From the NCBI RefSeq assembly GCF_022045235.1, contig NW_027266267.1, positions 9,796,001 to 9,860,000 on the forward strand: a stretch of 64,000 nucleotides of DNA, read 5' to 3'. The first letter of the stretch is position 1; each line of letters starts with the position of its first letter. The notes below the pieces were generated by a model. It searched no databases. It was not told the DNA's origin and saw nothing but the letters and a program-made list of their open reading frames with translations. Of the stretch, positions 4,180-43,350 are shown one piece after another. Origin of the DNA: Haliotis cracherodii. Lineage: Eukaryota. A program made the position numbers and the translations under genes.

Positions 4180-4392
4180 TGTTACGGAAGTGTTACGTGT
4201 AGTCAGGAGGTTGAACACATGGTATAGAAGATATATGCAGCTTGGTGAATCATCGAATATCATTTTTATGAATCTGCACACGATATTAACAGGCGAAGTT
4301 AAAGAGGAAACTTTGTTTTCGGGTTTCATTTGCCGGGTAAACGTGCTGCGTAGTGAAGTCATCCACGTGCCTCTTGTCAGACAAAATGGCGG
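4180..4392 (+). promoter_or_regulatory. Putative promoter / first exon region of the Ig-domain receptor gene
   Basis: ETS-like CGGAAGTG (~4183), E-box CACGTG (~4364), and CAAAATGGCGGC (Kozak context overlapping a YY1-type motif) at ATG 4386, followed by donor GTAAGT at 4401. Motif matches only. Confidence 0.35.
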
Positions 4393-7300
4393 CTGATACT
4401 GTAAGTAAATACACAATGTTCATAACAGTGAGTGAGTGAGTGAGTGAGTGAGTGAGGTCTGACATGTTCGGACTTGTTTCAGAAGTTGTATAGCTCAGAA
4501 CATTACATGTATCTAACGCAATGGATGGTCATGCACCGTCACAGTGACCGTAGCAGAGAGAACATTACACGTATGTAACGCAGTGGATGGTCAAGCACCG
4601 TCACAGTGACCGTAGCAGAGAGAACATTACATGTATATAACGCAGTGGATGGTCAAGCACCGTCACAGTGACAGTAGCAGAGAGAACATTACATGTATCT
4701 AACGCAGTGGATGGTCAAGCACTGTCACAGTGACAGTAGCAGAGAGAACATTACATGTATGTAACGCAGTGGATGGTCAAGCACCGTCATAGTGACCGTA
4801 GCCGAGAGAACATTACACGTATATAACGCAGTGGATAGTCAAGCACTGTCACAGTGACCGTAGCAGAGAGAACATTTAACATATGTAACGCAGTGGATGG
4901 TCATGCACCGTCACAGTGACCGTAGCCGAGAGAACATTACATGTATGTAACGCAGTGGATGGTCATGCACCGTCACAGTGACCGTAGCCGAGAGAACATT
5001 ACATGTATGTAACGCAGTGGATGGTCATGCACCGTCACAGTGACAGTAGCCGAGAGAACATCACACGTATGTAACGCAGTGGATGGTCATGCACAGTCAC
5101 AGTGACAGTAGCCGAGAGAACATTACAGGTATGTAACGCAGTGGATGGTCAAGCACCGTCACAGTGACCGTAGCAGAGAGAACATTACATCTATGTAACT
5201 CAATGGATGGTCAAGCACCGTCACAGTGACCGTAGCAGAGAGAACATTACATCTATGTAACTCAATGGATGGTCAAGCACCGTCACAGCGACCGTAGCCG
5301 AGAGAACATTACTTGTATTTAACGCAGTGGATGGTCAAGCACTGTCACAGTGACAGTAGCCGAGAGAACATCACACGTATGTAACGCAGTGGATGGTCAA
5401 GCACCGCCACTGTGACCGTAGCAGAGAGAACATTACATGTATGTAACGCAATGGATGGTCAAGCACTGTCACAGTGACAGTAGCAGAGAGAACATTACAG
5501 GTATGTAACGCAGTGGATAGTCAAGCACCGTCACAGTGACCGTAGCCGAGAGAACAGTACATGTATGTAACGCAGTGGATGGTCAAGCACCGTCACAGTG
5601 ACCGTAGCAAAAAGAACATTACACGTATGTAACGCAGTAGATGGTCATGCACCGTCACAGTGACCGTAGCAGAGAGAACATTTAACGTATGTAACGCAGT
5701 GGATGGTCAAGCACAGTCACAGTGACAGTAGCAGAGAGAACATTACATGTATGTAACGAAATGGATCGTCAAGCACCGTCACAGTGACAGTAGGAGAGAG
5801 AACATTACATGTATGTAACGCAATGGATGGTCAAGCACCGTCACAGTTACCGTAGCAGAGAGAACATTACATCTATGTAACTCAATGGATGGTCATGCAC
5901 CGTCACAGCGACAGTAGCCGAGAGAACATTACAGGTATGTAACTCAATGGATGGTCAAGCACCGTCACAGTGACCGTAGCCGGGAGAACATTACATGTAT
6001 GTAACGCAGTGGATGGTCAAGCACCGTCACAGTGACAGTAGCAGAGAGAACATTACACGTATGTAACGCAATGGCTGGTCAAGCACCGTCACAGTGACAG
6101 TAGCCGAGAGAACATCACACGTATGTAACGCAGTGGATGGTCAAGCACCGTCACAGTGAACAGTAGCCGAGAGAACATTACATGTATTTAAAGCAGTGGA
6201 TGGTCAAACACCGTCACAGTGACAGTAGCCGAGAGAACATTACAGGTGTGTAACTCAATGGATGGTCAAGCACCGTCACAGTGACAGTAGCCGAGAGAAC
6301 ATTACATGTATGTAACTCAATGGATGTTCATGCACCGTCACAGTGACCGTAGCAGAGAGAACATTACATGTATGTAACTCAATGGATGGTCAAGCACCGT
6401 CACAGTGACAGAAGCAGAGAGAACATTACAGGTATGTAACTCAATGGATGGTCAAGCACCGTCACACTGACAGTAGCCGAGAGAACATTACAGGTATGTA
6501 ACTCAATGGATGGTCAAGCACCGTCACAGTGACAGTAGCCGAGAGAACATTACATGTATGTAACTCAATGGATGGTCAAGCACCGTCACAGTGACCGTAG
6601 CCGAGAGAACATTACAGGTATGTAACTCAATGGATGGTCAAGCACCGTCACAGTGACAGTAGCCGAGAGAACATTACAGGTATGTAACTCAATGGATGGT
6701 CAAGCACCGTCACAGTGACCGTAGCCGAGAGAACATTACAGGTATGTAACGCAGTGGATGGTCAAGCACCGTCACAGTGACCGTAGCAGAGAGAACATTA
6801 CATCTATGTAACTCAATGGATGGTCAAGCACCGTCACAGTGACCGTAGCAGAGAGAACATTACATCTATGTAACTCAATGGATGGTCAAGCACCGTCACA
6901 GCGACCGTAGCCGAGAGAACATTACTTGTATTTAACGCAGTGGATGGTCAAGCACTGTCACAGTGACAGTAGCCGAGAGAACATCACACGTATGTAACGC
7001 AGTGGATGGTCAAGCACCGCCACTGTGACCGTAGCAGAGAGAACATTACATGTATGTAACGCAATGGATGGTCAAGCACTGTCACAGTGACAGTAGCAGA
7101 GAGAACATTACAGGTATGTAACGCAGTGGATAGTCAAGCACCGTCACAGTGACCGTAGCCGAGAGAACAGTACATGTATGTAACGCAGTGGATGGTCAAG
7201 CACCGTCACAGTGACCGTAGCAAAAAGAACATTACACGTATGTAACGCAGTAGATGGTCATGCACCGTCACAGTGACCGTAGCAGAGAGAACATTTAACG

Positions 7301-10300
7301 TATGTAACGCAGTGGATGGTCAAGCACAGTCACAGTGACAGTAGCAGAGAGAACATTACATGTATGTAACGAAATGGATCGTCAAGCACCGTCACAGTGA
7401 CAGTAGGAGAGAGAACATTACATGTATGTAACGCAATGGATGGTCAAGCACCGTCACAGTTACCGTAGCAGAGAGAACATTACATCTATGTAACTCAATG
7501 GATGGTCATGCACCGTCACAGCGACAGTAGCCGAGAGAACATTACAGGTATGTAACTCAATGGATGGTCAAGCACCGTCACAGTGACCGTAGCCGGGAGA
7601 ACATTACATGTATGTAACGCAGTGGATGGTCAAGCACCGTCACAGTGACAGTAGCAGAGAGAACATTACACGTATGTAACGCAATGGCTGGTCAAGCACC
7701 GTCACAGTGACAGTAGCCGAGAGAACATCACACGTATGTAACGCAGTGGATGGTCAAGCACCGTCACAGTGAACAGTAGCCGAGAGAACATTACATGTAT
7801 TTAAAGCAGTGGATGGTCAAACACCGTCACAGTGACAGTAGCCGAGAGAACATTACAGGTGTGTAACTCAATGGATGGTCAAGCACCGTCACAGTGACAG
7901 TAGCCGAGAGAACATTACATGTATGTAACTCAATGGATGTTCATGCACCGTCACAGTGACCGTAGCAGAGAGAACATTACATGTATGTAACTCAATGGAT
8001 GGTCAAGCACCGTCACAGTGACAGAAGCAGAGAGAACATTACAGGTATGTAACTCAATGGATGGTCAAGCACCGTCACACTGACAGTAGCCGAGAGAACA
8101 TTACAGGTATGTAACTCAATGGATGGTCAAGCACCGTCACAGTGACAGTAGCCGAGAGAACATTACAGGTATGTAACTCAATGGATGGTCAAGCACCGTC
8201 ACAGTGACCGTAGCCGAGAGAACATTACAGGTATGTAACTCAATGGATGGTCAAGTACCGTCACAGTGACAGTAGCCGAGAGAACATTACAGGTATGTAA
8301 CTCAATGGATGGTCAAGCACCGTCACAGTGACAGTAGCCGAGAGAACATTACAGGTATGTAACTCAATGGATGGTCAAGCACCGTCACAGTGACCGTAGC
8401 CGAGAGAACATTACAGGTATGTAACTCAATGGATGGTCAAGCACCGTCACAGTGACAGTAGCCGAGAGAACATTACAGGTATGTAACTCAATGGATGGTC
8501 AAGCACCGTCACAGTGACCGTAGCCGAGAGAACATTACAGGTATGTAACTCAATGGATGGTCAAGCACCGTCACAGTGACAGTAGCCGAGAGAACATCAC
8601 ACGTATGTAACGCAGTGGATGGTCAAGCACCGTCACAGTGAACAGTAGCCGAGAGAACATTACATGTATTTAAAGCAGTGGTTGGTCAAACACCGTCACA
8701 GTGACAGTAGCCGAGAGAACATTACAGGTGTGTAACTCAATGGATGGTCAAGCACCGTCACAGTGACAGTAGCCGAGAGAACATTACATGTATGTAACTC
8801 AATGGATGTTCATGCACCGTCACAGTGACCGTAGCAGAGAGAACATTACATGTATGTAACTCAATGGATGGTCAAGCACCGTCACAGTGACAGAAGCAGA
8901 GAGAACATTACAGGTATGTAACTCAATGGATGGTCAAGCACCGTCACACTGACAGTAGCCGAGAGAACATTACAGGTATGTAACTCAATGGATGGTCAAG
9001 CACCGTCACAGTGACCGTAGCCGAGAACGTTGAAATCGAGAAGTTGAGAAGCACAGGCAGAAATTAGGTGTACGTTTACAATAGATAAAAGACTCCTGTA
9101 ATTGTTCAAATGGTTTAATTTGCCATACTGACTGACATACTGAGAAAATGCATGATTTCATAAATAACATGAACATGCCAAAATGTCAATTTACAAATTA
9201 ATAGCTTGTGTGTCCATCTCTGGTTGCGATGCAAGCAACACATCTTTGTCTCATGGAATGGACCAAGCTTCGCACAAAGTCCTGTGGGATATCTGTCCAT
9301 CTCTGCTGGAGCATGTTTCGAAGTTCCTGAGGTGTCTTTGGAACACATGGTTGACGTCGAAGGCGCCGTTCCATCTCATCCCACATGTGCTCGATTGGTG
9401 AGAGATCAGGGGAGCGAGCCGGCCAGGGGATGACAATCACGTTGTTTTGTTGATGAGATTCCTGAACAAGTCGAGCAATATGAGGCCGGGCATTGTCATG
9501 TTGAAGGGTATTGCCTGGGCCATGGCGACGCAAAAACGGTAGAACAACAGGACCGATGATCTCGTCGCGGTAGCGCTATCCATTCAGAATTCCCTCAATC
9601 TACCACTACCAAACGGGTCGTCTGTCTTGCTGTAATCCCACCCGTACCATAACGCTGCCGCCCCCGAACCGATCCTTGACACAATGATTGACGTAACGGT
9701 CACCTCGACGTCGGTACACTCGAATCCGCCCATCACTGTTGCTGAGGTGAAAACGAGACTCTTCAGTGAATAGAACTTGTCCCCACTGCATGACCGTCCA
9801 GCGTAGGCGCTGTCTGCACCACTGTAGACGTGCTTGACGGTGGTTTCCTGTCAAAATGGGACGTCTTGCCGGTCTTCTGGCGTCAATCCCTGCACATCTA
9901 AGGCGGCGACGTACTGTTTGTGAAGATATTCGTCGAAGGCCAGGGATGCTTCTTGCAGTCACTGTTGCTGGCTGGAATCGATTTTGTAGGTGTGTTGTTC
10001 GAATCCAGTTGTCTTGTCGATTATTGGTTACGCATGGCTTGCCACGCTGAGGATGGTCTCTGACTGCATTCGTCTGTTGCCATCGTTGCCATAAACACCA
10101 AATGGTGTTTCTGTGGACGTTAAATTGTCTTGCATCATCACGTTGACTCTATCCTACTTCAAGCATACCAAATGCTCGCAGACGCTCGTTTTAGGACAGG
10201 CGTGGCATTTCGTAATGTTGAAGAATTGCGTAATTTTGTTGTTTTTCTGAGTGGTTGTTGTCAGCACGATGCTAAACAATGCATATGAGATCCCGTTAAC

Positions 10301-13300
10301 GCATATATTTTTATACTCATTCTTGGGTAGTAAAATGCATTGGGCTTGCATAAAAGTGAATGTTTGCATGAAATGCAAGCTTTTCTGTAGCAGTTGCGTT
10401 TTTGTGACTTGATTCCATACATGCACTACACTATTGAAAACCAAACTTTACTTGTTTGAAAAATATACTCAAATATTGGTGTCACAGGAACTTTTGTTGT
10501 TGAGTATATGTAAAACATGTGTATGTGTGCAACTTTGGAAACACATTCATTCGTAATTGTTGACTATGTATCTGTCATATATTAGGGGAATGCAAAGCTG
10601 CTGTCTCCTTTGAAGCTGTACGCTGCAGTAGTGTTGATCTGTGGAGTGCTTGGACTACAAAATGTAGGTAGGTATTTGCTATGTAGATGTTCGCCTTATT
10701 GTCGTAGTTTCTCTAATTCCATAGAGTAACATATTTTCAAAGAGACTGTGTGACAAAAGGGGAGACATCAACTGTCCCTTTATGTCGAGCAATATTCCAG
10801 CAGCTCCAACCCTTGGTGGCTACATGTCACACCCTTCTAAAGTACGATCGAACATACTCTTTCCACTAAGATTTCAAACTGGCTTAAGCCTTAGTACGAT
10901 GTTCAAAATATGTGATGGAGGATATTTGCAAATTTGACCTATCAATAACCAACACGCTGTCCGATGCACTTCCCCATTTGGACTTGTACCATTATACTAC
11001 CACATGCTTCCGTGAACACTTGACTTGCTTTGCGTGTGTTTGTGACGGGTACTACCGGCGAGGCAGAGCACGCTCCCTTTTCCACGAACATCTTGCATCA
11101 TCATCATTTGTAGTGTTTAGACCTTCTGCTTATGGCATAGTCTGAACACATTGTACTCTACCTTCAGTAGAAATGTTTCATGATTATGGACATTGATGCT
11201 TTTCATTTGAATCCATGTTTCGCTCTGGTGATGATGAATGAACAAACCCAACATGTTTATTCCAACACCTTTCACGCAAAATACTCACTCATTTTTTGCT
11301 TACAAAATAAAATTGAAAATGAAACTAAATATAAATAATATGGCTGTCAATCATATCGGAAAGACAATCAAATATATGTCAGCAACTCGCCTCAATATAA
11401 CAACAGCATATACGTCAGCTATTAATGTCATCATTATTGATCTTGTTTGAATAATTGATCATGGTTATAAAAACACAACTATGTATTGAAAATACATACA
11501 AATGAACAACAAACAAAAATCTTTGAAAGTCATGTGAAAGATTTTCTTGCCAGGTCTTCGTCTGACTTCTGACCCAATGTTTGCCAAGGACGGAACGTCT
11601 GTTACTATATCGTGCAGATATGCTGGGGGCAATAATATCACAAAAGCACAGTGGTACAGAAACAATGTGATCATCTTCCAAACAAGTCACCTCCAGCCAA
11701 ACCAGGCGCTTGATGAAAACAGGAACACATCTGTATATGGGCGAATTACTGTGGACGCAACTATAAGACGACATGACATCATTCTCCCGTTCAATACCAC
11801 TCTTGACGAACGATCTGTGTGGGAGTGTAGAGACGGCAATAAATCAAGTTACAAGATGACACTTTGTTCAAAGCATATTGGTAAGGAGACAATGTAGAAG
11901 TGGGATAGTGACACAAAGAAATTTGATTAAAATAACAAAGAAATAAAACATATCTACAATAAGGAGATTCACATTTGATGGCACCAACCCCCTATCAACT
12001 CAATTTGGAAGGCCCATTACACATTATCTGACAATGATGAAAGATTAAAGTCAGTTTCTTAACTTTACATTTTGTACGCAGATTCGGCGTAGTTAACGCA
12101 TGCCACGTTGTATTGCTGTAACATGATTTGAATGTTACAGATGAATGTATACGGCCGAATCTCACATCAGAACCAAAGGAAGCACTAGATGGCACCAATG
12201 TCTCTCTTTCCTGTAGACACGGAGCAGGCCGCAATATTACAACAGTGCTGTGGTATCGGAACTATGTTTATATATTCCAAACGTCCAACCACAAACCGGA
12301 AATCGTACAAGACAAGCAGTCGGACAAAGAAGACTACAAGGCTGTGGATGGGCGTATTTTAGTTAACGCCAACTTTGCCGTTCACAACGTGATATTCCGA
12401 ATGAACTCTGTGCTTGATGCGGAATCTGTGTGGACTTGTGATAATAATCAGAAGTTCAGTGATGACTTGGTGATCGAGACAAAAAGAGGTAAGAGGGAGA
12501 TAACTCCGTTAATGTGTACATGCATCGACAGCGCGATATATCTATATATTTCATATGACGATGTTGATATGCCTCATCAGTTTATATAAAGATGTGCTCT
12601 TGAAGTGGTTTGTAACTTACATACTTATCTGCTGTGGCTGATTTCACATCATGATAAACATCATCCTCTTTTTATTACAGCTGGCAGTTCTGAATCAACC
12701 GCCTTTCCTCTGTCATCGACACCAACAACTTACGGGAACGGTAATATGTGAAATAACAGAGATATATTATACATTCATCCTTGAAAGGTACATTCTAAAA
12801 CCACAAAAGCAATAAGTGATAAAGGGCATAATTTCACAGTCGGTATTTCTGCTCGTATCAGCAAATTCAAAACAGGGAAATTTGGTCAAGATGTTTAATT
12901 TAATAAGCTTCAGGTATATCGGAGATCCGATAATGGTCAAATAGCCAATTCCTTTTCTCTGATTGACCCATCTGAGCAAGAAATAAATAAGACTAGTGAA
13001 ACGCCTCATCCGTTTCATATGTAGCTCTATGCGTTCAGATTCAGAGTGACAAAAACTCTCTACATGTCTGTATGAAACGAGGGATGACTTCAACTTTCAT
13101 GCATATGACTCTAACTATAACGTTGTTTGACCAGTGTTACAACATTCCAGGTATTTGTTTGTGTTTGTGTGTTTAACACCGCAATCAACAATATTCCAGC
13201 TATAGGGAGGCGGTCTGTAAATGCTCGAATCTGGACCAAACAATCCAGTGATTGACCTCTTGAGCAGCTATCTACGCAGTTGGGATTCGATGATATTCAT

Positions 13301-16300
13301 CAACCAAGTCTATGAGCCTGAACGCCTGATCCCATTCGTCGTCTCTTACGACTAGCAAGAAGATGATGGGTTGTTCTAACCCGGACCTTCATAGATCATA
13401 CACGCACGAGCACTGATATGGTGTTCATAAAATAATCGACTCTGGAACAAGATTCTGGAACTCCTAGCGGACGCAGCTCCAGACAAGGAATTTTGGCACC
13501 CTAACACTGAAAACTCTTCGTGTTCTTAATAACAGTTGAATTCCATACCATACTACAAGAGCACAACGTAAGCAAACTTATATTTGTGTTGTAATCAAAT
13601 TGCTTGAAGCGGCGACAAATGGATTATATTTGGACAATAATTTGCAAGTGGCAGGTGTTTCTTATCGTGTTTCAGTTGAGAGTAAGAAAACCACAACCAC
13701 CCTGGGAATAACTAAACCAACAACTGAAGAATATGGTAAGTGCTCTCATCGTAAGTATGCCATGGGAACACTCAAGTAATATCTGGGTAGGCAACGTGAG
13801 CCACTGGTACGTTTCCGTCAATTCATTTCACCTGTGGTCTGGAGTCTTTCAATCCGGCCCGTTTTCATGTCAATAATCTGCTCTTTTCAGCAACAACTTC
13901 ACAACCAAGCACACGTTCTGTGACAACACAAACATCCAAGGATGACTGTAAGTTTTGTACCTCAGGAACATTTAGTCTGAAAGTAGAAAGTAATAAACAA
14001 CACAGTGATACGATAAAACACATCGCCATGCTTATTCAAATAATGAGTTCTCTCAAAATTGTGAATAATACACATGAGTCTGTCGGTAGTTTACATATTT
14101 TTCTTCGATAAAAGAAATGTTTGTGACTGTAGTATTTACGCTCTCAGAGGATGGTTATTACATTATTTTCACTATCAGCTATTTCAAGAGCACCTACATA
14201 AGCAAACATGGTGGCGGAGTCTTGAACTTTGCCGTTGATTCAGCTTTTGAGATTAGGAGATTTCCAGAACAGTAAAGTTATCAAAATGATTGTAATCTTC
14301 AATTCGTGCGAAGTCATCTTTGCTTGGACGTGTTTCTCAATTCTTCAACAGTTACTCATAGAAACTCCATGTGCCGATTCCAGTTCACATTAGATCCCAA
14401 TTACTGTCATCGTATCCCGACAATATGGGTCGTTGTTCATGCTATCAACTACTAGTTTGCCAGATTCGGTATACTAGGACCATGGCTGACTGTGGAATAA
14501 AACAACAAACTCATAATAACAGTTAATAAGATGCAAAGGTCATGTTGATGCCAATCGATATGTTTGAAAATCCATAACTCTCTATTTTCAGCAAGCAGTG
14601 ACAAAGGGACCTCAAGTGCCTCAACACTGATAACATCCCAGTTCAAAAGCAAGTATCAAAGATGCTTATTCAGTAAATATTAAAGACGTTATAGTCCATG
14701 TCCCATGTCTACTGAAAGTGTGTCTTTGCTGTTCAAGAGGGAAAATGGAATCACCGTTTTGTATCTTTGGACATTGAAAGTTCGTTGACCTCATGACTCA
14801 ATGTTACTTAATGATCCCAATGGAATACTTCTGAATCAAAGTCAGGTGGGATTATGTTGGTCGTGGTCTTTAGTTTTAGAGATTTTAGCCCAGTAAGGAT
14901 CTCGGGTTAGCAGTTGTTGAATTTGTCTTCGGAGGTAACAATAGATCGGGTAGATCATGGTTCGGTAATTGGGTTGTTCGAACCACGTGGTTGCTGGACT
15001 CAATTATATAAAGGCAGCCTATCAACAGCTGCCATATTGCTGAGTGAGGCGTAATTTAACAATAAAAAACATGTTAACCTTACACATTTAACTGAATTAC
15101 ACAATCCTCCGTGTTGCAGGCGTCGCGCCAGTCAAGTGATGACACCAATAGAGATGAATTACACGTGCATATTGCAGTTGCAGATTTGTATATGTTTATT
15201 TCACAGGCAGCAGAAAACCCACTTCTCATCAACCAACTGTACATGTGACGACACTTTCTCAGCCCGTGTCAAGTTCTGCAGAAAACAAGAACGGTAAAAC
15301 ATGCTCACGATATCAATATCAGTACACAAACCACAGCATGGTATTTTATGGTTGTGTTAAATGGACTTGAAATTAATTCTAGGCTTTGATTTGTATTCCC
15401 TTGGCAACATTATGAAGCGTTTCATTGTCTAGTTCCGTGTGTGGACACTGAATGTTTGGTTCAGAAGCAAAACCTCATATATTATTACATGATTCAATGT
15501 TTCGATTTCCAGTTTGTGTTAACATGCGGGAAAAACACATTCACATAAACAACAATTGACATGGATGTTTCAGAATCATGCATGATGATCTCCTGTTATA
15601 CACTTTTTCCTTATTACCCCCTGATGACCCTAAAGGTGCAAGTGCATTGTCCTCATTGCAAGCATACATGGGGGAAAGAAATTCCCCACACATTACAGTA
15701 CACATAAGACCGGTTTAATTGTAAATATATTGCTGAGTGCAGCGTTAAACAACAAACAAAACAAATAAGCAGCCGTAAATATGACACCAATCAGAGTTCA
15801 ATGCCCTAACTACCTCTGAAAGCTTTGAATAAAGACTCTACAAGCGTATGCATGCTTTATACCGCTGACTGAATTAAGAAACGAGGAATACTCTCTATTT
15901 TCAGCAAGCAGTGACAAAGGTACCTCAAGTGCCTCAACACTGACAACATCCCAGTTCAAAAGCAAGTATCAAAGATGCTTATTCAGTAAATATTAAAGAC
16001 GTTATAGTCCATGTCCCATGTCTACTGAAAGTGTGTCTTTGCTGTTCAAGAGGGAAAATGGAATCACCGTTTTGTATCTTTGGACATTGAAAGTTCGTTG
16101 ACCTCATGACTCAATGTTACTTAATGATCCCAATGGAATACTTCTGAATCAAAGTCAGGTGGGATTATGTTGGTCGTGGTCCTTAGTTTTAGAGATTTTA
16201 GCCCAGTAAGGATCTCAGGTTAGCAGTTGTTGAATTTGTCTTCGGAGGTAACAATAGATCGGGTAGATCATGGTTCGGTAATTGGGTTGTTCGAACCACG

Positions 16301-19300
16301 TGGTTGCTGGACTCAATTATATAAAGGCAGCCTATCAACAGCTGCCATATTGCTGAGTGAGGCGTAATTTAACAATAAATAACATGTTAACCTTACACAT
16401 TTAACTGAATTACACAATCCTCCGTGTTGCAGGCGTCGCGCCAGTCAAGTGATGACACCAATAGAGATGAATTACACGTGCATGTTGCAGTTGCAGATTT
16501 GTATATGTTTATTTCACAGGCAGCAGAAAACCCACTTCTCATCAACCAACTGTGCATGTGACGACACTTTCTCAGCCCGTGTCAAGTTCTGCAGAAAACA
16601 AGAACGGTAAAACATGCTCATGATATCAATATCAGTACACAAACCACAGCATGGTATTTTATGGTTGTGTTAAATGGACTTGAAATTAATTCTAGGCTTT
16701 GATTTGTATTCCCTTGGCAACATTATGAAGCGTTTCATTGTCTAGTTCCATGTGTGGACACTGAATGTTTGGTTCAGAAGCAAAACCTCATATATTATTA
16801 CATAATTCAATGTTTCGATTTCCAATTTGTGTTAACATGCGGGAAAAACACATTCACATAAACAACAATTGACATGGATGTTTCAGAATCATGCATGATG
16901 ATCTCCTGTTATACACTTTTTCCTTATTACCCCCTGATGACCCTAAAGGTGCAAGTGCATTGTCCTCATTGCAAGCATACATGGGGGAAAGAAATTCCCC
17001 ACACATTACAGTACACATAAGACCGGTTTAATTGTAAATATATTGCTGAGTGCAGCGTTAAACAACAAACAAAACAAATAAGCAGCCGTAAATATGACAC
17101 CAATCAGAGTTCAATGCCCTAACTACGTCTGAAAGCTTTGAATAAAGACTCTACAAGCGTATGTATGATTTATACCGCTGACTGAATTAAGAAACGAGGA
17201 ATACTTCATGTTTAACATTACATCACTAATTTAGCAAATAATTATACGTATGAATACGTCTAAAATTGGTGAATCCTTGTTCTTTACAGATATTATCCTG
17301 TATGCTGTAATTGGATCAGCGATTGCTGTTGTAGTGATTACAACTGTGGCTGTGACTGTGTGTCTTGTCTGTGTCAAGAAAATGATAGGTAAATACTACA
17401 GCAGTGTTATAGTATATGCGTATATAAAGGAAAGAACATTATATTCTGTTCAATAAGCCATTTATCAAAAGCATTCCAAGCTATACGGCTTTAAAAACAA
17501 TATAATAGATGGCAGGCGGTTAGTATCACAGAGACACTACATTAAAACTGAATTTGCAAGATAATAACTATTATGCTAATATTGTTGACTTTGAGCTTTA
17601 AGCATTCGAAGACAAGGAACATATGCATGTACTCTTTACTTATTAGTTTAAAGATGGTTATATTTAAAAATAATATGTTATGTAATTCAATGTTACGTGA
17701 TGCACTTTGCCTTCTATGAATGTTTGCCATTGATGTTTAACTTCATCGTTTCAGGTCGTAAGGACACTGACAAACATAAGTATGTACAACACATGAATAA
17801 CTTACATTATACCGTCCGTATCTTCATTAATTAGGACGATAGTGTGATTTAGTGTAGTAGGCATACAGTCCTGGATATCGGCATGCAATTAATGACGGAT
17901 ACGCTTGTATGTACTCCGGATGTAAGCCCAACAAAAATAATAAGTTATCAAAGATAGTGTTTTACCATAAGGTGCAATCCGTGTCAAAGATATTTGTTAC
18001 AGTCTAATGTGTTGGAGCATGTGTCTCAGTCCATTCATCTCGAACATCTCTGAAGTGTAAAATGTGTTCGGCCAAAGTGACCGACATTGCTCTCATTACT
18101 AGAAAGTGTTAACTTCTGTGCTCCGTACTTCTGTAAATGATCTACGTCTAGCTTTTAGTCCATGGTTCCATAATGTGTCTGAACATTCATTTTCAGAAAT
18201 GATAAGGGCACACCGGAAGGTAACAATGGAGATGTAAACATGGATGGTTTGTATTCTCATTTCAATATACTTCGTGTACCTTTCTATTTACTTCCTGTAC
18301 ATTTCTATATACTTTGTGTACATGCCTATATATGCTGTGTAAATTTCTATATATGTCGTGTACATTTCTATATTCTTCGTGTACATATCTATATACTTCA
18401 CGTACATTTGTATATACTTTGTGTACATTTTTATATATGTTGTGTACATTTCTATATACTTCGTGTACATTTCTATATACTTTGTTTACATTTCTATATA
18501 CTTTGTGTACATTTCTATATACTTCGTGTACATTTCTATATACTTCGTGTACGTTTCTATATACTTTGTTTACATTTCTATATACTTTGTGTACATTTCT
18601 ATATACTTCGTGTACATTTATATATACTTTGTGTACATTTCTATATACTTCGTGTAAGTTTCTATATACTTCGTGTACATTTCTATATACTTTGTGTACA
18701 TTTCTATATACTTCGTGTACATTTATATATACTTCGTGTACATTTCTATATACTTTGTGTACATTTCTATATACTTCGTGTACATTTCTATATACTTCGT
18801 GTACGTTTCTATATACTTCGTGTACATTTCTATACACACCGTGTACATTTCTATATACTTTGTGTACATTTCTATATACATTGTGTACATTTCTATAGCT
18901 TCGTGTACATTTCTATATACTTCACGTACATTTCTATATACTTCGTGTACATTTCTATATATGTCGTGTACATTTCTATATACGTCATGTACATATCAAT
19001 ATACTTTGTGTACATTTCTATATACTTCTTGTACATTTCTATATACTTCGTGTACATTTCTATATATGCCGTGTACATTTTTATATACTTTGTGTACATT
19101 TCTATATATTTTGTGTACATTTCTATATACTTCGTGTACCTTTCTACATACATTGTGGAATTTTCTATATACTTCACGTATATTTGTATATACTTCGTGT
19201 ACATTTATATATATGTTCTGTACATTTCTATTTACTTCGTGTACATTACTATATACTTCACGTACATGTGTATATACTTCGTGTACATTTCTATATACTT

Positions 19301-20993
19301 CACGTACATGTGTATATACTTAGTGTACATTTCTATATACTTTGTGTACATTTCTATATACTTTGTGTACATTTCTATATATGTTGTGTACATTTCTATA
19401 TACTTCATGTACATTGGTATATACTTTGTGTACATGTCTATTTTTGTTGTGTACAATTCTATATATGTCATGTACATTTCTATATACTTTGTGTACATGT
19501 CTATATATGTCGTGTACATTTGTATATACTTTGTGTACATTTCTATACATGTGTACATTTCTATATACTTCGTGTACATTTCTATATATGTTGTGTACAT
19601 TTCTATATACTTCGTATACATTTCTATACACACCGTGTACATTTCTATATACTTCGTGTACATTTCTATATACTTTGTGTACATTTTTAAATATTTCGTG
19701 TCCATTTCTATATAAGTCATGTACATTCTAATAAACGTTTCGTTGCAGTGATGGTCGACAATGAAGCTTATGTTCAATATGCCTACATTGAAGATACAAA
19801 CAGTTGTGATGTGCAGTATGAAAGAGAAACTGCAGGTAGTAGTGCACATTTAACAACAGAATTAACGAGTCATGATGGAATCTTGTTTAGGTATTTCATT
19901 CCGATTTTACCATAACATGGGAATCTTTCATATTACCAAATTATCAAGATGCAATTGTACTTTTGATATTGCTAACAGTTAAAGAGCACAATAGTTCTAG
20001 TAGTTTTATAGTATTTAATGTCCTTTTCAAAACCAGATTGATTAGTGTAGAATATTAGTGGTGGGCGGTAATGAGTGTCTGTGGTCTGAGCGTCAAAATA
20101 AAATCGCACACTAATGATGAAACTAATTTTATTTTATTAACATTAAGTTAAAGCTTGATACGTCGAGTATTGTCTTAGCTCAACACGAGAACAACCATAT
20201 AATCTATCATTCAACTCTTATTCCAAATATATTGCAATGTGAACGTGTTTAGCGCTTGACTAACGTAAAATAAGTCTGGTTCATTTGTCACGTGGAACAC
20301 CCATGCTCCTGAACATCACAATATCAATATATGACTTAAACATAATTCCTATATAGTACACAATGTGAAGACAAGCCATGTCAAGAGAAACTATGGGGTA
20401 GATGCAATCACGTGTGAGAGCGATTTTGTAGAGGTTAACTGTGTACTGGTGTGTCATTGTGTCGCCTTATTGTCCCCGGGGCAACGGTTGTCCAGTCATC
20501 TGAGAAGCCGCAATTCATTGTACAGAGTTGTGTCCCCCCATTTTTATAACTCACTCACTTCAATTGTTTCAGAAATGGTCGACAACGTCTGTTATCATGG
20601 GTATTCGGACAGCGACGTCTCGGACACCTCGTACTGGGAGGTAGGCGGATGGAACTTATAGTCTCCCCCCTCCATACATGTCTTTGTTACAAATTCAAGT
20701 TGCCGACACTGAAATAGGAATGAAGCATATATATTGTATGCCAAACTATCTAAATTTGTGCAAGTAACGTGTTTATTTATTATTTTCCTTTAACTTCTCA
20801 AAGTTAAACTATTTATTTGTTGATAGCAGTTAATGTTATAACAATTAATAATCCATCACGTTGTCATATAATCTAGGTGTTAAACAACAAATGTAAACTG
20901 TATTATCCATCTCTCAGTCACGTCCTACATTCTTTATGTTGACAGTACAACGGCCCCGCTGATGAGCGTGCTGGATCTGACAGCAAGGACTAG
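4386..20993 (+). CDS. Type I membrane IgSF receptor: signal peptide, 2 V-like Ig domains, mucin-like S/T stalk, TM helix, Tyr-rich tail (~537 aa, ~17 exons)
   Basis: Phase-compatible exons: 4386-4400 (MAADT), 10586-10667 (signal peptide LYAAVVLICGVLG), 11554-11880 (Ig1), 12141-12488 (Ig2), stalk 12681-12740, 13676-13735, 13891-13947, 14592-14648, 15207-15293, 15905-15961, 16520-16606, TM 17290-17388 (IILYAVIGSAIAVVVITTVAVTVCLVCV-KK), tail 17755-17779, 18197-18246 (alternative donor after 18219), 19749-19835, 20573-20640, 20946-20993 (TAG). Ig domains show the SC...WYR...GR...D-x-x-SVW-x-C pattern with 70 and 74 aa between cysteines. First and last exons are the least certain. Confidence 0.8.
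4428..4456. repeat. (GAGT)n microsatellite
   Basis: GTGAGTGAGTGAG... run. Confidence 0.9.
4497..9028. repeat. 62-bp satellite array (~73 units) with a 1613-bp (26-unit) higher-order repeat, in intron 1 of the Ig gene
   Basis: Consensus AGAACATTACATGTATGTAACGCAGTGGATGGTCAAGCACCGTCACAGTGACCGTAGCAGAG with period 62 (AACATT at 4561, 4623, 4685...). Rare variants recur 1613 bp apart. Confidence 0.97.
9075..10508 (-). mobile_element. Tc1/mariner (DD34E) transposon, frameshifted, 3' TIR lost
   Basis: ORF fragments WGQVLFTEESRF (9606-9962) and QHDNARPH...SPDLSPIEHMW...GHTSY (9198-9533). TIR TACTCAACAACAAAAGTTCCTGTGACA at ~10480-10507. Same family as 41980-43051. Confidence 0.92.
13154..13397 (-). 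mobile_element. SINE-like retroposon, CGTAAGAGGCGACTAA family
   Basis: Aligns with copies at 45955, 49355, 53775 and 61394 (CAATATTCCAGCTAT...TCTGGACC...CAATCCAGTGAT...). Confidence 0.85.
14577..17202 (+). repeat. Tandem duplication, 2 x 1313 bp (14577-15889 / 15890-17202), carrying two stalk exons per copy
   Basis: Near-identical copies at offset 1313 with only scattered substitutions; 3-bp ACT microhomology at the junctions. Confidence 0.95.
18265..19730. repeat. 21-bp minisatellite (~70 units), intronic
   Basis: Consensus GTGTACATTTCTATATACTTC. It accounts for all the low-complexity ORFs in 18240-19849. Confidence 0.97.
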
Positions 20994-22994
20994 TGAGTAT
21001 ATGGACGGATCATAATCATTACCATAAGACTGGAATATGTGTGTATCATTTGAGCAATATGTACTGATAGCCGCTATCCCCTACTATTCGGAGCCTTCTC
21101 ATCAGACATGCCAAAACACTGAATGCTGCCATTATACTGACACTGGTTGACCTAATATATAAGCACGAAAGTGCGTATTTGGGCGTTGATATTTTGATCC
21201 AATGGAATTTTCTCTTCTGCGGATTTCAAGGGAAAAACGTGGATCTCTGCTATCCTTCACCTGTCGTAAGTGTGAGTGAGTTGGGTTTAACGCCTCTGTT
21301 AACAGTATTCCAGTTATATCACGGCGGTTGTCGTTCACCCTTTTAGTCAGTCGTTCCATATGTCCAGACACCACTATTACAGGCTCCCGAGACATACGAG
21401 GACATATTGAAGACTGCCGCGACGACACACATTCACGGTCGATAATGTTAACGTTGTAGATGTACGTTGTATGTTGTTATTCCAGATAATGCATTCAGCA
21501 TGGTGGCTGTCAAGATTACCTGAATGAACAACAAAACCTGGACAGACAACAACTCGTGTCAGAACAAACTGCAAAACATACGGACACACTTTGGAAAGGA
21601 ATTTTGTCCACGAAAATGAAACTAAATTGTTCTTGGTCGTCGTACGTGTTCAAATCTCATTCGATGTGTATCGAGATGTACTGCCAATATTGTTTTATTG
21701 TAATTATTTTTTAGTTTAAGTGGATTATATGTTATATGCGTGTGTCAGTATAATACATCCATGGAATGTTCAGTGCATTATTTTATCATTGGAAAGCATT
21801 GAACTGATAGGTTTTCGTTGATGCGGATACGGATATACTAATCTCTTATGTAAATGCTTGGTATTATGTGTATGACAGTTGCTTTTATATTTTCCCTCTG
21901 CGTGGGTGTACGTGTATAAAGAAAAATTAAGTGATATGATTCATGTCATCTGTACGTGTATATATATTCAAATTGATATTAATATCATTACATACAGATT
22001 TGCCATTCAACTTGATATTATCATTAGTACATGTGGTATTAATATAATTATTGTGTTTCAATTTGTTATATCAAATCAATATCGTAGTTCATGATTATTG
22101 TATTAAACTTGATCACATGTTATGCATGTTGTATGCTAAGAATACCACAGTTTTGCCTCTATTGATGCTGTGGTAATACAGAAGCTCTCTTTATGCTGTG
22201 TGGGGTCATGAAGTGTATTTGAGTTATTGGATGCTTATTTGTTATCAATAAAAACAACGTGACAGTATCACGTATAAAACGATATGAAGCAAAGGGAGGT
22301 AAATAAGACGAACCAAGTAAGCTAAGTAGATCTGAATGATACATACGACTATATGTTCACATTCAGTAGCTTTCCCACACAACCAATTAACGAATCACTT
22401 ACACCTTGTGTTCCAACTGGAAGTTGAATATATGCAGGTCAATTAGAAAACTATGGATTAGAAAAGCTTAAACAATTTGAATATTTGTAAAATGTTCATG
22501 CTCGCGATCTCATTTGTTGTTTGACATTCTACCATGAATTTGGAATTTACTCGAATCTGATTGGTCAATCAGAGGCTATTAAATCACAATAAACCCCCTC
22601 TGATTGAAACAACTGGTTTGACGGCCGCATCACCGCGGAAGCTAATATTCATAGAATAGTACTATTTTCAATCATTGTCGGTAGGCATATTCAAATAACT
22701 ATATCTACAATTACAGGTTACAAAATGCACAGATGCGGTTACTACAATATTCAAAGGATGTGTGGCAATACATTTCGTGCAGAAAAACATGACAGAAATC
22801 AACAAAGGGAATGTATTTACGTTTTGGAGACAACAGAGAGCTTGGAATTTTGGCGCTTTTCTATATACGACTGTTCGGTGATTATGTAATTCAGATCGAT
22901 AACCGACCCAAAACTCTGAACTCAACCCATGCCGCTTCACTCAGTATATTTGCTAACACCAAAGAGTTCGCATTTTATTTAGTCATGGTAGAAT

Positions 22995-27558: not shown

Positions 27559-30500
27559 ATGGCAATGCCTGACATCTTAGGAACTACTCTTCTGTTTATA
27601 CAAGGTGGGTTAATGCCTTTGTAAGTAGTACCTTTTTCTGACACCTTAGTTTTTACAGTAATGACTATTTGGTGCTTTTAACTGCCTGAAGTCTTCCCAT
27701 AGTCTCTTGTAAAGTAATAGTGTTTAATAGCAAGTATCAGTTTTATGTTCTCGTGTTACAATTAATGCTTCAAAGAAATATTGAATTAGTATTGTTTTAT
27801 TTTAGTGTATAAGTGATGCCATGGGTCTGTGGCTAAAATATATTGGTATTACTTTACCTCTTCAAAATAGCATGGCGCAGTTGTGAACGAAATACAAATA
27901 ATTTTGGTGAGTTACCATTGGCCTCTGTGCCTCGGGTACATGGATTTGATTCTGCTCTGTCTCTTTACAAAATAAGGAACACGATGGCCAAGGTAATTGG
28001 ATTGTTAACATATCATGATGAACATTTGCAGAAAATATACAAACAGTTTTTTTGTGAGTTGCTACTGGATTTGCCAGGAGACCCTGATCATGATGGATAT
28101 ACAGTTTATAATCGAAATGGTGGTGGTAGTTGGTTGGGTTTACATTACAAGTCCTTCGGGCCCCGCCCATACACCTCATTATAATATCATACATGGTCCT
28201 CCTCAAATGGTTATTCATGCAAATCAAAGTATATGTGAGTTGTGGGTTGAAACTCTACATCACTTAAAATATACAAACTCAATGAAAGTAGGGTATCATA
28301 AAATATAAATGTCAATACCCAGTATTACATCAAAGATATGTGGGGACAAACAAAATTCTGTGCAAGAACGTTTATGTCTGTAAAATGTAAAAACGACACA
28401 CATCATAATGTTTGCACGTTTCTCAGGCACCTGTAACATACATACGTAGGATGTTTTTTTCTGATTTGGACACTTTGAAGAAACTTCAATTAATCACTGT
28501 GGACCATTAATTCTGTCAATCTGATTCATTCGGTCAGGATAATATTAATGAACACTGAATTGACATATTCTCATTGTCAGGATAAATTACCAGAACACTA
28601 TCGTCGCTTTTGGCAATATCATATAACAATAGCCTTGCGTCATTCACGTGCTTTATGTCATCTTGGTTGTTTTCTATCAGTTTGTTTTAATGAGTCAATT
28701 TATCCTGCTCTCACAGAATAAATCCAAATACAGTAAGAATAGTAGAGTCAGTAGTATTAAATAGGATTAACATGGGACACAGACATGATTGAAATTAGAA
28801 ACGTCTGGTTTCACGTCTTGTCTGGGGTTCAATTGTCGCCCCACATAGCATATCACATATAATAACATACCCAGCAATTAGATGGTTATGGAGTCACACA
28901 TCAAATCACAACTTGCAACTATTTCTCGGAGGTCCACGCCCGACTCAAGCCCATCGATATTCTAATAATTTACGTCAGGGTAAGCGTTAACATTGGCCAT
29001 CCTATTAAATGTGTGATGAGAAACAGTAATAGAGAACACCTATTTCCTATGGCTTGAGACAAATAGTTAATATTGAACGAGATTTGCAATTGCAGAGAAC
29101 GTTCTTAACTCCCTGGTACAACCAGATAAAGTTAACCAACTTGAGTTCGATGAATAAGGTATAACAAAATAATACAAAATGAATTCTTGTTCCGTAAAAT
29201 ATATTAATGTTTCTATACTTTCAGCATATTGGTATCTTGGGTTCACGCAAGCCGTCTCTGGTACAGGGAACCGCACCAGTTTCTCCTTTGAAATGGACAA
29301 GTCACCGACGGCAATCATTGTCGGGCACACACCAGGTTAACATTTAATAGCTTTGATACTATTTATAAGAATATCCTTTATACTTGTGCCACATAGCTGA
29401 GCCATTCTACCTCAGTCCTGATTTTTTTACCCAATTATGTCGCCAGATTATTAGGTATTCTTTGGTAGTTACTTGAATTGGTGCTTACCGACCGTCATGT
29501 AACCAGATATTTTCATATACTGAGAGAAATTGCGTGACATATATTTCGTAGAGAAAACCTAAGCAGAAAAACGTGTTTGCAGTTGTACTGTATTAAAGTT
29601 GATAATACCCTAAATATATCAGTTACCATTGAAAGGCTTCATTGACGCCAGAATTAACATTGCTCAGATTCACAACAGTCTCATAACATTGTTATATTGT
29701 TTAAATTCATGATTACATCTTCCCATTACCCTCAGAATATTTATTTTAAGATTCGCAAATAGACAACATCATCCGAACAATTTCACGGCGGAGGAAAGTC
29801 ATAATTGTGGATGTCGATGCCTTTCCCAGCACCATATCGTCCCACATGTCAACAGTCATGTTGTATGAAAATCTGGAATCTATCAAAAGAAATCTCAAGT
29901 TTCTCGTTATAGCTGACGTTGACACTATTCGTCCTTTACTACAAAAGGTATTTCGATATATGCAAGGCGTGATGTTGATTTGTGATTGAACACATCATGA
30001 TAGTAATCATAAATACATTTGTAAGGCTGACCACGCTATTTCTGCATAACATTCAAACACATGAATACATGCAACATTGAGAGCACAATATCAAGGAGGA
30101 CATGAAGCATGACCCAGTCAATTACATATATTATCATTTAGATAGTACATTGTAAGTAATTAATGTCACACTGATCTTATACCTCTCCAGGTGATTTTAA
30201 ACCTGTGCGACCACTACAGTATGATAACATTACATCTTTACAGACTTTAATGTCAGCAATGATGGGGAGTGATGTTGAATGCTATTTTTAAATGGAGATC
30301 TGAAGCATGGTGTTAATTCGAATTTATACCTCCCTGATGCATGCCTTGAATCAGGTATCACATTGAGCCATTAAAGGAATTCAATGCTATAAGCTTCAAC
30401 TCCAAACTGAACACCATAAAGTAAGGCAAATAGTCCAGTTTTAATGCAACTACCGTTTTTTCTCTTTAATATATTCTCACACATTTCCTCCAACCACAGC

Positions 30501-36500: not shown

Positions 36501-37932
36501 AATCCTTGGTTTCTGGCGTGCCCAAGGGACGCAACTCTGCACAGCGAATCGCGGCGCCTTAGACGAATGGGTCACCCGTGCCCCCCATCTTGTAAGGAAA
36601 ATCATGCCAGTATAGAGAGAGGAATTTGGAGATTAGGACTGATATACAGAATAGACATGGTCACGGATAGAAGCACTCAGAGTTTAAATAATGTAGTATT
36701 AAGCAAGCATAGCTTGCTTGTGAAATAAAAGGCAGTTGATACAGAGTTACGGCGTACGCAGGTGCTCAGAGTCCCATGCCCTTTGTATTGATGTTGCTGT
36801 TATGGAGCTCTGTATGCAATTCTTGACGACTTATTCAAACAAATGATACTTACACATTCGTGATTGCCATTTGATTGTAGGGGTCGAACGACTCTGTCAA
36901 GAAACAAATCTGGAAAAAGAACAGGGAGCACCAACCTGACAACCTCACTAGTGAGGAGGACATAATGTACCACAGGACCAGACTAGCTGAAGGGCGGTAT
37001 GCTTTCATAACGGACATCGACGTTATCAACAACTACATGGTTGAAACATGTGAAATGGCTCACACAATGGAACATATATTTCATACAATGTCTTCACTGA
37101 TTGTACCAAAAGACTCTCCTCTTGCCTTGTTAATTGATCCAGAGTGAGTTTACATATGAAAGTAAAACTAACAAAACACTTTATGAAGCCATATGCAATC
37201 TACCTTCATATTGTTTTATATTTTTGCAAACACCTGGTATCAGCACTATTTGATAATGATTCAAAAACACATAAATCTGACCATATTATAACTATGTGAA
37301 GAATTGTGTACCCAAGCCATTGATAATTTGAATTCTAGCAAGCTGATATCACTGGTGGATGATGGGATTATTGATAAGTGTGTATAAAATCCAATCATGT
37401 CCAAGACCAAACGCCCTTAAAGTGATTGAAATGATGATTTTGTACATGTACTCAGTCTGCCCAAAGAGTTCACTGCCACCACAGGGTAGAATCTTACAGT
37501 GTATCCCACATGTGTAGACTTGTTTCACGTTAACAAACGATTTAACTTGACATACTGACTCTCACCTTCTTGATGTTAATATGTTTAAAACGGTAAGGTG
37601 TTTGTGTGTTTCGCATAGGTAAGTTCAAAACCGCAATGCCAAAGAAGCAGTTTTCTGCATTCCTCAATCATTTTTATTTTCATCCTAACAGACTGATGGT
37701 CCTGGTGGAGCGTGGGGTTATTGACAAGTGGTACGAGCTCCCCAACCTAGACGAGAAGGTGTGTTCATCAAAGGAGGGAGAAAATAATGGCCTGAAACTG
37801 AGGGATTTGTTCACAGTTTTATTTGTTGCTGGATGTGGCGTGGGGCTAGCTGCTTTTGTTTTAGTGTTTGAGATATGTAAATATAAAGTACTATCTCACA
37901 TGAAATGGACTCCGGAGGGAAAAGGACTGTGA
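27559..37932 (+). CDS. Ionotropic receptor (IR / variant iGluR), paralog A, 628 aa, 11 coding exons
   Basis: Exons 27559-27604, 29225-29335, 29751-29947, 30756-30923, 31465-31617, 32004-32095, 32900-32987, 34441-34753, 35738-35952, 36881-37143, 37692-37932 total 1887 nt, all GT-AG, with no internal stop. Motifs: FPN..GLNGRVLK, LNFSY, WG..NGTWDGIMG (S1), M1, pore TCNQG, M3 YSGNLVAFLT, S2 YAFITD, M4 ..VFEI. The short N-terminus (~200 aa) is IR-like. Confidence 0.92.
28077..28310 (+). mobile_element. Possible LINE endonuclease fragment in IR-A intron 1
   Basis: DGYTVYNRNGGG and ELWVE resemble APE-endonuclease motifs. Intron similarity to paralog B stops at ~28076. Confidence 0.35.
36306..36585 (-). 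mobile_element. Full-length SINE (tRNA-Leu-like head, V-like core) in IR-A intron 9
   Basis: 13-bp target-site duplication CATCTTGTAAGGA (36293-36305 / 36586-36598). Inverted copy of 3535-3806; absent from the equivalent intron of paralog B. Confidence 0.9.
37339..37650 (+). pseudogene. Decayed duplicate of the IR terminal exon (pseudo-exon) in paralog A
   Basis: Reads KLISLVDDGIIDKCV* (functional exon: LMVLVERGVIDKWYE) and later LDILTLTFLMLIC..VCVFRIGKFK (functional M4 end: VLVFEICKYK). Confidence 0.65.
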
Positions 37933-37992
37933 TCCTAAATATCATTATTTTCCAGAGAGCAAAACATATCCAGACGCATATTGCGAGCTACA

Positions 37993-43051: not shown

Positions 43052-43350
43052 ATGTATACAATCAGGCTGTGTTGACATTGTCATGTAATTCATTGACCCA
43101 CATTGTCATTGTTTACATTGATATATATACAACCAGGTTGTGTTGACATGATCATGTAATTCAGTGACACGCATTGTCATTGTTTGAATTTATATGTATA
43201 TACAACCAGGCTGTGTTAACATGGTCATGTAATTCAGTGACACACAGTGTCATTGTTTGAATTTATAGGTATACAATCAGGTTGTGTTGACATGGTCATG
43301 TAAATCAGTGACACACATTGTCAACGTCAACATGTATATGTTTACAACCT
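43052..43350. repeat. ~72-bp tandem repeat (~4 units) abutting the Tc1 right TIR
   Basis: TACAA(T/C)CAGG recurs at ~43057, 43128, 43201 and 43272, with a diverged TACAACCTGG at 43343. Confidence 0.85.

What the first reader, a model, noticed from the sequence alone, without database searches (positions are those of the whole stretch)
4386..20993. Unannotated-type invertebrate V-V-mucin-TM receptor with a tyrosine-signalling tail
Seen: two mutually similar V-like Ig exons, a long S/T stalk of symmetric phase-1 mini-exons, a TM helix and a tail with eight tyrosines. Both Ig domains have W-x-C instead of the canonical Y-x-C before the second cysteine. An extra Cys pair straddles the Ig1/Ig2 exon junction (LCSKHI-DECIRP). 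Established: IgV + mucin + Tyr tail is the layout of TIM/CD300-type receptors, and cnidarian Alr allorecognition proteins are Ig-like receptors with tyrosine motifs. Inference: a lineage-specific immune, allorecognition or adhesion receptor.
Basis: partly seen in the sequence, partly recalled or inferred. Interest (0 to 1): 0.7.

Follow-up and report, generated by a model that had tools for sequence, protein, structure and literature searches.

The report
Abalone's hidden variable Ig receptor family
This is a real, spliced abalone gene for a cell-surface protein with two predicted antibody-like tips, a mucus-like stalk and a tyrosine-rich tail; it is one member of a clustered family with at least 80 such tip exons, part of which shows positive selection, so the family likely serves as a repertoire of immune-type recognition receptors.

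Summary
Observation confirmed. The exons splice into an open 537-aa V-V-mucin-TM-tail protein; RNA-like contigs from three studies join Ig and tail exons; a red-abalone orthologue is 90% identical with all eight tail tyrosines kept. Ig1 is predicted to fold as a V domain (pLDDT 91). Corrections: the stop is split by an intron before a UTR exon at 21486; two stalk introns are GC-AG; two stalk exons are a recent 1.3-kb duplicate absent from two RNA contigs.

All named relatives are Haliotis. One subfamily shows positive selection (LRT 53.6) on CDR-like loops; tails are enriched in NxxY and D-x-Y-A-x-V-type motifs, not ITIMs. It fails TIM and Alr tests. This gene itself is an old, near single-copy member with no Ig excess over its tail against red abalone. 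Likely an immune-type receptor family; ligand and tissue untested. The scan's notes held no earlier report of it.

The parts
4386..4400 (+). Exon 1 (ATG, 5 codons)
10586..10667 (+). Signal-peptide exon
   Evidence: hydropathy peak; joined to Ig1 in X1 and X6 contigs
11554..11880 (+). Ig1, V-type domain with W-x-C; extra Cys near its end
   Evidence: AlphaFold2 pLDDT 90.9 with A1; V-domain matches; RNA-like contigs
12141..12488 (+). Ig2, V-type domain with W-x-C; extra Cys at its start
   Evidence: 43% identical to Ig1; joined to Ig1 in X1, X4, X6; not folded on its own
12681..12740 (+). Stalk mini-exon 1 (phase 1-1)
   Evidence: joint 12474-12679 in X6
13676..13735 (+). Stalk mini-exon 2
   Evidence: joint 13733-13890 in X4
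13891..13947 (+). Stalk mini-exon 3
14592..14648 (+). Stalk mini-exon 4, GC donor
   Evidence: only the GC donor keeps the frame; spacing in the X6 contig fits 60+60+57+57
15207..15293 (+). Stalk mini-exon 5
   Evidence: exact piece 15207-15293 in X4 and X6 contigs
14577..17205 (.). Two tandem copies of a 1313-bp unit; copy 2 carries stalk exons 15905-15961 and 16520-16606
   Evidence: 14 mismatches in 1316; X4, X6 contigs and P0001 have one copy
17290..17388 (+). Transmembrane exon, no charged residue
17755..17779 (+). Tail exon 1
   Evidence: same spacing argument; matches P0001
18197..18246 (+). Tail exon 2 (long form)
   Evidence: loose ends before 19748 in 4 of 4 runs
19749..19835 (+). 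Tail exon 3: MVDNxxY (19751-19771), VxYxxI ITIM-pattern (19772-19789), 4 Tyr
   Evidence: covered in 4 of 4 runs, GT-AG joint to next exon in 3 of 4
20573..20640 (+). Tail exon 4: second MVDNxxY (20575-20595), 3 Tyr
   Evidence: GT-AG joint to next exon in 4 of 4 runs
20946..20992 (+). Tail exon 5, 1 Tyr, first two bases of the stop
21486..21600 (+). Start of 3' UTR exon (end not determined)
   Evidence: loose ends behind 20989 in X2, X4, X5 match it

Best explanation
The gene encodes a single-pass receptor with two predicted V-type Ig domains on a likely O-glycosylated stalk, and is one old member of a clustered abalone family that likely works as a germline repertoire of immune-type recognition receptors. 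Shown: spliced gene, V-set signature residues except Tyr->Trp at the tyrosine corner, family of at least 80 Ig exons in tandem clusters with intact, broken and identical copies, positive selection on loop and C'/C'' sites in one subfamily, recurrent tyrosine modules in tails. Inferred: the CDR-like face binds a non-self or altered-self ligand; clustering lets a Src-type kinase phosphorylate the tail; the two hydrophobic-x-N-x-x-Y modules (one per exon, likely an old exon duplicate) dock PTB adaptors of the Dok/Shc/CED-6 type, as the NPLY motif of CD200R does, and the VxYxxI site may recruit SHP/SHIP. The uncharged TM argues for signalling by the tail, not through a DAP12/FcRgamma-type partner. 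This member, conserved one-to-one across Haliotis species, more likely tunes or damps cell responses than belongs to the fast-evolving detector clade.
For: Model and splicing. V fold. Family size and clusters: 80 distinct places from three searches, 72 on C4. C, W, D, W-x-C invariant, G 93%, R 95% in 61 domains. M2a vs M1a in 18 domains of the 12.4-13.0 Mb clade: LRT 53.6, 19% of sites at omega 3.5; 10 sites in BC, C', C'C'', C''D, FG; halves on their own trees 33.6 and 11.9; 30 null simulations gave at most 6.6. Second clade (8 domains) LRT 8.8. Tail census of 56 tails: NxxY-type 23 (shuffles 0.3), D-[VLIM]-Y-[ATS]-x-[VP] 15 (0.1), YxN 31 (18). All 8 Tyr kept in H. rufescens. 8 of 9 H. asinina members lie on a record with the length of its Chr_1, likely the chromosome that PMC12627906 reports as Ig-enriched, non-syntenic and copy-number variable.
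Against: No ligand, tissue or phosphorylation data; runs are unlabelled and only guessed to be RNA. For this gene, Ig (203/225) is no more diverged than tail (84/92) against H. rufescens; only one contig shows an Ig excess (39/663 vs 4/203 nt, p 0.026). Pooled paralogue dN/dS is 0.82 over 21 independent pairs, dN>dS in 56 of 162 close pairs. Recombination is present (PHI-like p 0.003) and the codon models are my own code with fixed branch proportions. ITIMs are not enriched (11 of 56 vs 7.5), ITAM pattern in 3 of 56 and not in this gene; NxxY lacks the Pro of canonical NPxY (1 of 56). Motif patterns were written after seeing the tails and the rows include isoforms and orthologues.
Confidence: 0.55

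Rival explanations
1. Adhesion or cell-identity code (Beat/Side-, Dpr/DIP- or nectin-like): paralogues give cells distinct binding labels in nervous tissue or epithelia, and tails couple to the cytoskeleton.
For: V-V-stalk-TM layout is common in adhesion proteins (own knowledge); this gene is conserved one-to-one with no Ig excess; LYAKP-type YxxP motifs in other tails fit Crk/Abl docking (recalled); weak sequence hits to SYG-2 and Beat-Vb, E 0.013 and 0.067.
Against: Species-level copy turnover, broken copies and omega>1 on the CDR-like face are less usual for wiring codes; no orthologue outside Haliotis found.
Confidence: 0.2
2. Host surface proteins used by pathogens as entry receptors: selection reflects escape, and tailless or soluble members are decoys, as for CEACAMs.
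For: Positive selection on one face; 10 short-tailed and 12 TM-less records among 78; TIM-like layout.
Against: Several TM-less records look like fragments or partial models; does not explain the varied tyrosine modules.
Confidence: 0.1
3. Gamete-recognition proteins, in line with the fast evolution of abalone lysin and VERL (recalled).
For: Rapid, Haliotis-restricted evolution.
Against: Dozens of paralogues with signalling tails; this gene is 90% identical between two species with no Ig excess. No tissue data either way.
Confidence: 0.08
4. Alr-like allorecognition determinants that bind identical alleles in trans.
For: Clustered V-domain receptors with diverse tyrosine tails, one domain per exon, as in PMC9546547.
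Against: Opposite sequence profile (C-W-C pin invariant here, absent in Alr); no Fn3-like domain; abalone are solitary; allelic polymorphism not measured.
Confidence: 0.05

Closest known systems
TIM family (HAVCR1/TIM-1, TIM-3)
   Same: IgV + S/T mucin stalk + TM + tyrosine tail; one H. asinina member is auto-named HAVCR1 homolog
   Different: No six-Cys IgV, no MILIBS-like FG loop; TIM-1 IgV matches only at E 0.3; 1-3 (up to 9) V domains; dozens of genes
CD200R1 and clustered paired receptors (CD300, SIRP, fish NITR/NILT)
   Same: Two Ig domains and an NxxY tail motif as in CD200R (PMC5413580, passages); tandem clusters, birth and death, long- and short-tailed forms
   Different: NxxY without Pro; charged TM in only 2 of 66; ITIM not enriched; W-x-C; no sequence homology shown
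Hydractinia Alr family (PMC9546547, passages and section 10)
   Same: Invertebrate cluster of V-domain single-pass proteins that Pfam mostly misses, with diverse tyrosine tails
   Different: [quoted passage not shown]
Biomphalaria PTC1/GRC and PTC2 transmembrane clusters (PMC7494358, passages)
   Same: Gastropod clusters of divergent single-pass receptors; those are tied to parasite resistance
   Different: Not described as V-Ig-mucin proteins in the passages read; no phenotype link exists for the abalone family
Oyster CgIgR, CgIgIT2, NCAM1 (PMC11999971 passages; PMC6994640 and PMC11841013 search listing only)
   Same: Mollusc Ig receptors with tyrosine tails that act in haemocytes
   Different: Single genes with ITAM/ITIM and multi-Ig or Fn3 ectodomains; homology not tested
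Ig-enriched non-syntenic abalone chromosome (H. gigantea Chr4; PMC12627906, parts 3-4 and table rows S22-S30)
   Same: PF13895/PF13927/PF07686 enrichment; the family likely sits on the orthologous chromosome
   Different: The text read names only NCAM-like genes; this family scores below Pfam cut-offs for the window's Ig1 and is not described there

Membership tests
V-set Ig domain | V-frame fold with C' and C'' strands | tested here: met
   Ig1 model pLDDT 90.9, strands at 38-44 and 47-52; best matches TCR/antibody V and CD8a, Z 12.7, rmsd 2.4, 101 aligned
V-set Ig domain | C-W-C pin, R/D salt bridge, A'B Gly | tested here: met
   C, W, C, D 100%, R 95%, G 93% of 61 domains; list of residues from PMC9546547
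V-set Ig domain | Tyrosine corner (Tyr102, Y-x-C) | tested here: not met
   Trp in 61 of 61 (the extraction pattern required W-x-C, but all 27 rows of A1, cut by exon, also have it)
TIM | IgV with six cysteines (three disulfides) | tested here: not met
   Each domain of this gene has the two core Cys plus one at the junction; TIM-3 six Cys in PMC5413580
TIM | MILIBS phosphatidylserine site in the FG loop | tested here: not met
   FG loops are short and lack the hydrophobic-N-D motif
TIM | Mucin stalk, TM, tyrosine tail | tested here: met
   44% S/T, 8 Tyr
CD300 | Single IgV with a second disulfide in the C-C' region (recalled) | tested here: not met
   Two domains, no Cys between the core pair in this gene; other clades have an extra pair further on, around C''-D
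Paired immune receptors | Activating members with charged TM; inhibitory members with ITIMs | tested here: inconclusive
   Charged TM 2 of 66; ITIM 11 of 56, not above shuffles; ITAM 3 of 56
Hydractinia Alr | [quoted passage not shown] | tested here: not met
   Pin invariant; mucin stalk in place of Fn3
Hydractinia Alr | High allelic polymorphism and allele-specific homophilic binding | not testable with these tools
   No population data or binding assay
Immune receptor (function) | Haemocyte expression, ligand binding, tail phosphorylation | not testable with these tools
   Runs carry no tissue label

The most novel reading that the evidence does not exclude
Abalones carry an undescribed leukocyte-receptor-complex analogue: dozens of V-domain receptors on a copy-number-variable chromosome, diversifying at CDR-like loops, with heads and signalling tails (PTB-type, YxN/YxxM-type, DxYAxV-type, tailless, soluble) shuffled by exon duplication, which sets individual resistance to bacterial and viral disease and signals mainly without ITAMs or ITIMs.
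Probability: 0.25. Interest if true: 0.8.

Novelty: new variant of a known kind. Interest (0 to 1): 0.58.

Why it matters
Molluscs have few described families of variable cell-surface receptors. An abalone family with a sharp sequence signature (V domain with W-x-C), CDR-like positive selection and modular tyrosine tails gives concrete, countable candidates for the heritable disease resistance reported in abalone, and these genes are now hidden under names such as 'uncharacterized', 'mucin-like' or 'chitinase 3-like'. The single gene in the window is, by itself, an ordinary-looking conserved member.

Tried and rejected
Inversion coincidence: PMC11518883 puts a chr4 inversion breakpoint at 9.85 Mb over a tetraspanin gene, and the window is C4:9.80-9.86 Mb. 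No tetraspanin match lies near there on C4; matches at 9.81 and 9.85 Mb are on C34, so the likeness of numbers is taken as chance and no link is claimed. Balancing-selection genes of PMC13229213 (Dataset S1 read whole) could not be mapped to the family: the H. cracherodii records carry no LOC numbers here. A 32-nt candidate exon at 13536-13567 breaks the frame and is skipped by contig spacing; a candidate exon near 20357 is skipped by joints. Single-sequence AlphaFold of full-length P0001 failed (pLDDT 37), so the junction disulfide is untested. First codon-model run was poorly optimised and is replaced. Search with full-length alignment A2 returned only 4 proteins, crowded out, no evidence on range. 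No listed run is on record as RNA. No complex prediction was obtained. Literature searches found no description of this family; subscription journals are mostly not covered. The scan's notes near this place or like this sequence were empty.
Full report
Gene model. Splicing the exons by coordinates gives one open frame: ATG exon, signal exon, two Ig exons, seven phase-1 stalk exons, TM exon and five tail exons. With the long tail exon 2 it is 537 aa, or 489 aa with one copy of the duplicated stalk pair. All introns are GT-AG except two GC-AG. The stalk is 44% Ser/Thr, seven N-glycosylation sequons lie in the Ig domains, and the tail has eight Tyr.

Transcript support. No listed run is on record as RNA, but 14 holders are guessed RNA. 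In four runs from three studies, contigs cover exons and stop at their ends: SP-Ig1 (X1, X6), Ig1-Ig2 (X1, X4, X6), and one 1939-nt contig of X6 spans the signal exon to the last coding exon. Tail joints 19835-20573 and 20640-20946 are GT-AG in 3 of 4 and 4 of 4 runs; loose ends give tail exon 2 in its long form and a UTR exon at 21486, which splits the stop codon. I laid 10500-15880 and 19730-21250 only; the TM exon and tail exon 1 are inferred from a 174-nt gap (99+25+50) in X4 and X6 and from the orthologue. The same gap shows that these two contigs have one stalk pair. The runs hold at most a fifth of the query's words, so they are likely related species.

Organism and orthologue. The best hit is H. 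rufescens LOC124118994, 529 aa, about 90% identical in every region, with all eight Tyr and the junction Cys pair kept. 17 of 18 named H. cracherodii family proteins contain a G000 exon core letter for letter, against 0 of 13 H. rufescens proteins, so the window is likely black abalone. The nearest paralogue, 310 kb away, has an insertion and gaps in Ig2 and no TM or tail exon within the 20 kb fetched downstream: likely a broken copy.

Fold. Pfam scores both domains under its cut-offs; 16, 13 and 10 of 27 family exons match Ig_2, Ig_3 and V-set at E<=0.01. AlphaFold2 with the 27-row alignment gives pLDDT 90.9 and a V topology. Foldseek and VIA-align rank TCR, antibody and CD8 V domains first (Z 12.7, rmsd 2.4, 101 residues). 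Of the canonical V-set residues listed in PMC9546547 (section 10 read), the pin, salt bridge and Gly are kept, while the tyrosine corner is Trp throughout. That paper reports Tyr in 97% of its V-set seed and Phe in most Alr, so an invariant Trp is a usable family mark.

Family. Three protein searches of G000 gave 64, 60 and 73 matches, 80 distinct places after merging: 72 on C4, 6 on C18, 1 each on C34 and C7; the largest clusters hold 23 and 20 exons. These are lower bounds and exon counts, not gene counts; four carry stops and three are partial. I held DNA for 62 usable places, 61 without a stop. The tree groups exons largely by cluster; both window domains fall in a well-supported 11-row clade with the 7.2, 26.1 and 31.9 Mb copies. 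Outside G000: 38 of 38 hits are Haliotis (four species). Of the best 150 of 1044 representatives I took 41 that cover most of the profile, one of them a canonical Y-x-C multi-Ig protein, and looked up 20: 19 Haliotis, 1 unnamed. Weaker relatives below rank 150 were not seen, and the ESM Atlas lists unnamed mollusc clusters at 0.95, so 'Haliotis-restricted' holds only for close members.

Chromosome. 8 of 9 H. asinina members lie on a 105,963,769-bp record, the length of Chr_1 in PMC11393055 (passages). PMC12627906 (parts 3-4 of 7 and supplement rows) reports that H. gigantea Chr4, orthologous to the first half of NC_090280, is non-syntenic between haplotypes, copy-number variable and holds 145 of 158 PF13895 domains. 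That NC_090280 is Chr_1 is my inference from accession order.

Selection. Among 21 independent close paralogue pairs pooled dN/dS is 0.82; pN is 0.12-0.16 in BC, C', C''D and FG segments against 0.04-0.06 in the framework. Site models on 18 domains of the 12.4-13.0 Mb clade favour M2a over M1a (LRT 53.6; 19% of sites, omega 3.5), with 10 sites at posterior >0.95 in BC (3), C' (1), C'C''-C''D (5) and FG (1), none on the ABED sheet; an 8-domain clade gives LRT 8.8. Recombination is detected (p 0.003), but each half on its own tree stays significant, and 15 null simulations on one tree and 15 on two trees gave at most 2.6 and 6.6. The window gene was not in these tests. For it, dN/dS with the broken paralogue is 0.98, Ig and tail diverge equally from H. 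rufescens, and of the differences shown for Ig and stalk (a subset of those found) 15 of 19 codons are non-synonymous, about the neutral share.

Tails. Among 78 family proteins (isoforms and orthologues included), 66 have a TM, 56 have tails of 40 aa or more (median 6 Tyr), 10 are short-tailed; GxxxG in 47 of 66, a central charge in 2. A hydrophobic-x-[DE]-N-x-x-Y module occurs in 23 of 56 and a D-[VLIM]-Y-[ATS]-x-[VP] module in 15, far above shuffles; YxN in 31; ITIM pattern in 11 (not enriched); ITAM in 3. In the window gene two consecutive exons each open with MVDNxxY, which suggests an old duplication of a signalling exon. That NxxY docks PTB domains, YxN Grb2 and YxxM PI3K is recalled knowledge; the CD200R NPLY parallel is from PMC5413580 (passages).

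Verdict. It works like a TIM/CD200R/paired-receptor-type protein, but is not a member of TIM, CD300 or Alr by the features tested. The interest lies in the family: a large, clustered, partly positively selected set of V-domain receptors that my four literature searches did not find described. Function remains inferred. The SI PDF of PMC13229213 and the figure supplements of PMC12627906 were not read and may bear on the location of the clusters.

Noticed in passing
window 30400-37950 and 49100-56560 (+): Two tandem, similar ionotropic-receptor-like genes; exon 35659-36042 hits Pfam Lig_chan at E 1.7e-12.
   Followed up: partly
window 4497-9026: 62-bp tandem array, 73 copies, in intron 1.
   Followed up: no
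window 9198-10148 (-), 42255-43146, 47364-47881: Tc1/mariner-like transposase remnants; DDE_3 hit E 6e-8 for 9201-9575.
   Followed up: partly
window 18258-19727: 21-bp tandem array, 70 copies, between tail exons 2 and 3; it produces long spurious ORFs.
   Followed up: no
P0028 and P0029 (H. rufescens LOC124121873 X1, X2): Two annotated isoforms put one Ig head on two different stalk-TM-tail types; the X2 back half closely resembles that of P0013. Either head-tail swapping by splicing across neighbours or an annotation chimera.
   Followed up: no
L010 (G000:C4:26.07 Mb), 887-1300 and 1456-1842: A more divergent W-x-C Ig exon precedes the matched one; P0049 and P0089 have the same head, so further family exons escape my searches.
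   Followed up: no
G000:C4:12.78/12.81 Mb and 12.85/12.94 Mb: Two pairs of Ig exons identical at DNA level: very recent duplicates, gene conversion or assembly redundancy.
   Followed up: no
P0039 (H. asinina): 1612-aa member with nine near-identical V domains on another chromosome.
   Followed up: no
window 13536-13567: 32-nt exon-like stretch with AG/GT ends, also present in the broken paralogue (83% identical), but frame-breaking and skipped in contigs.
   Followed up: partly
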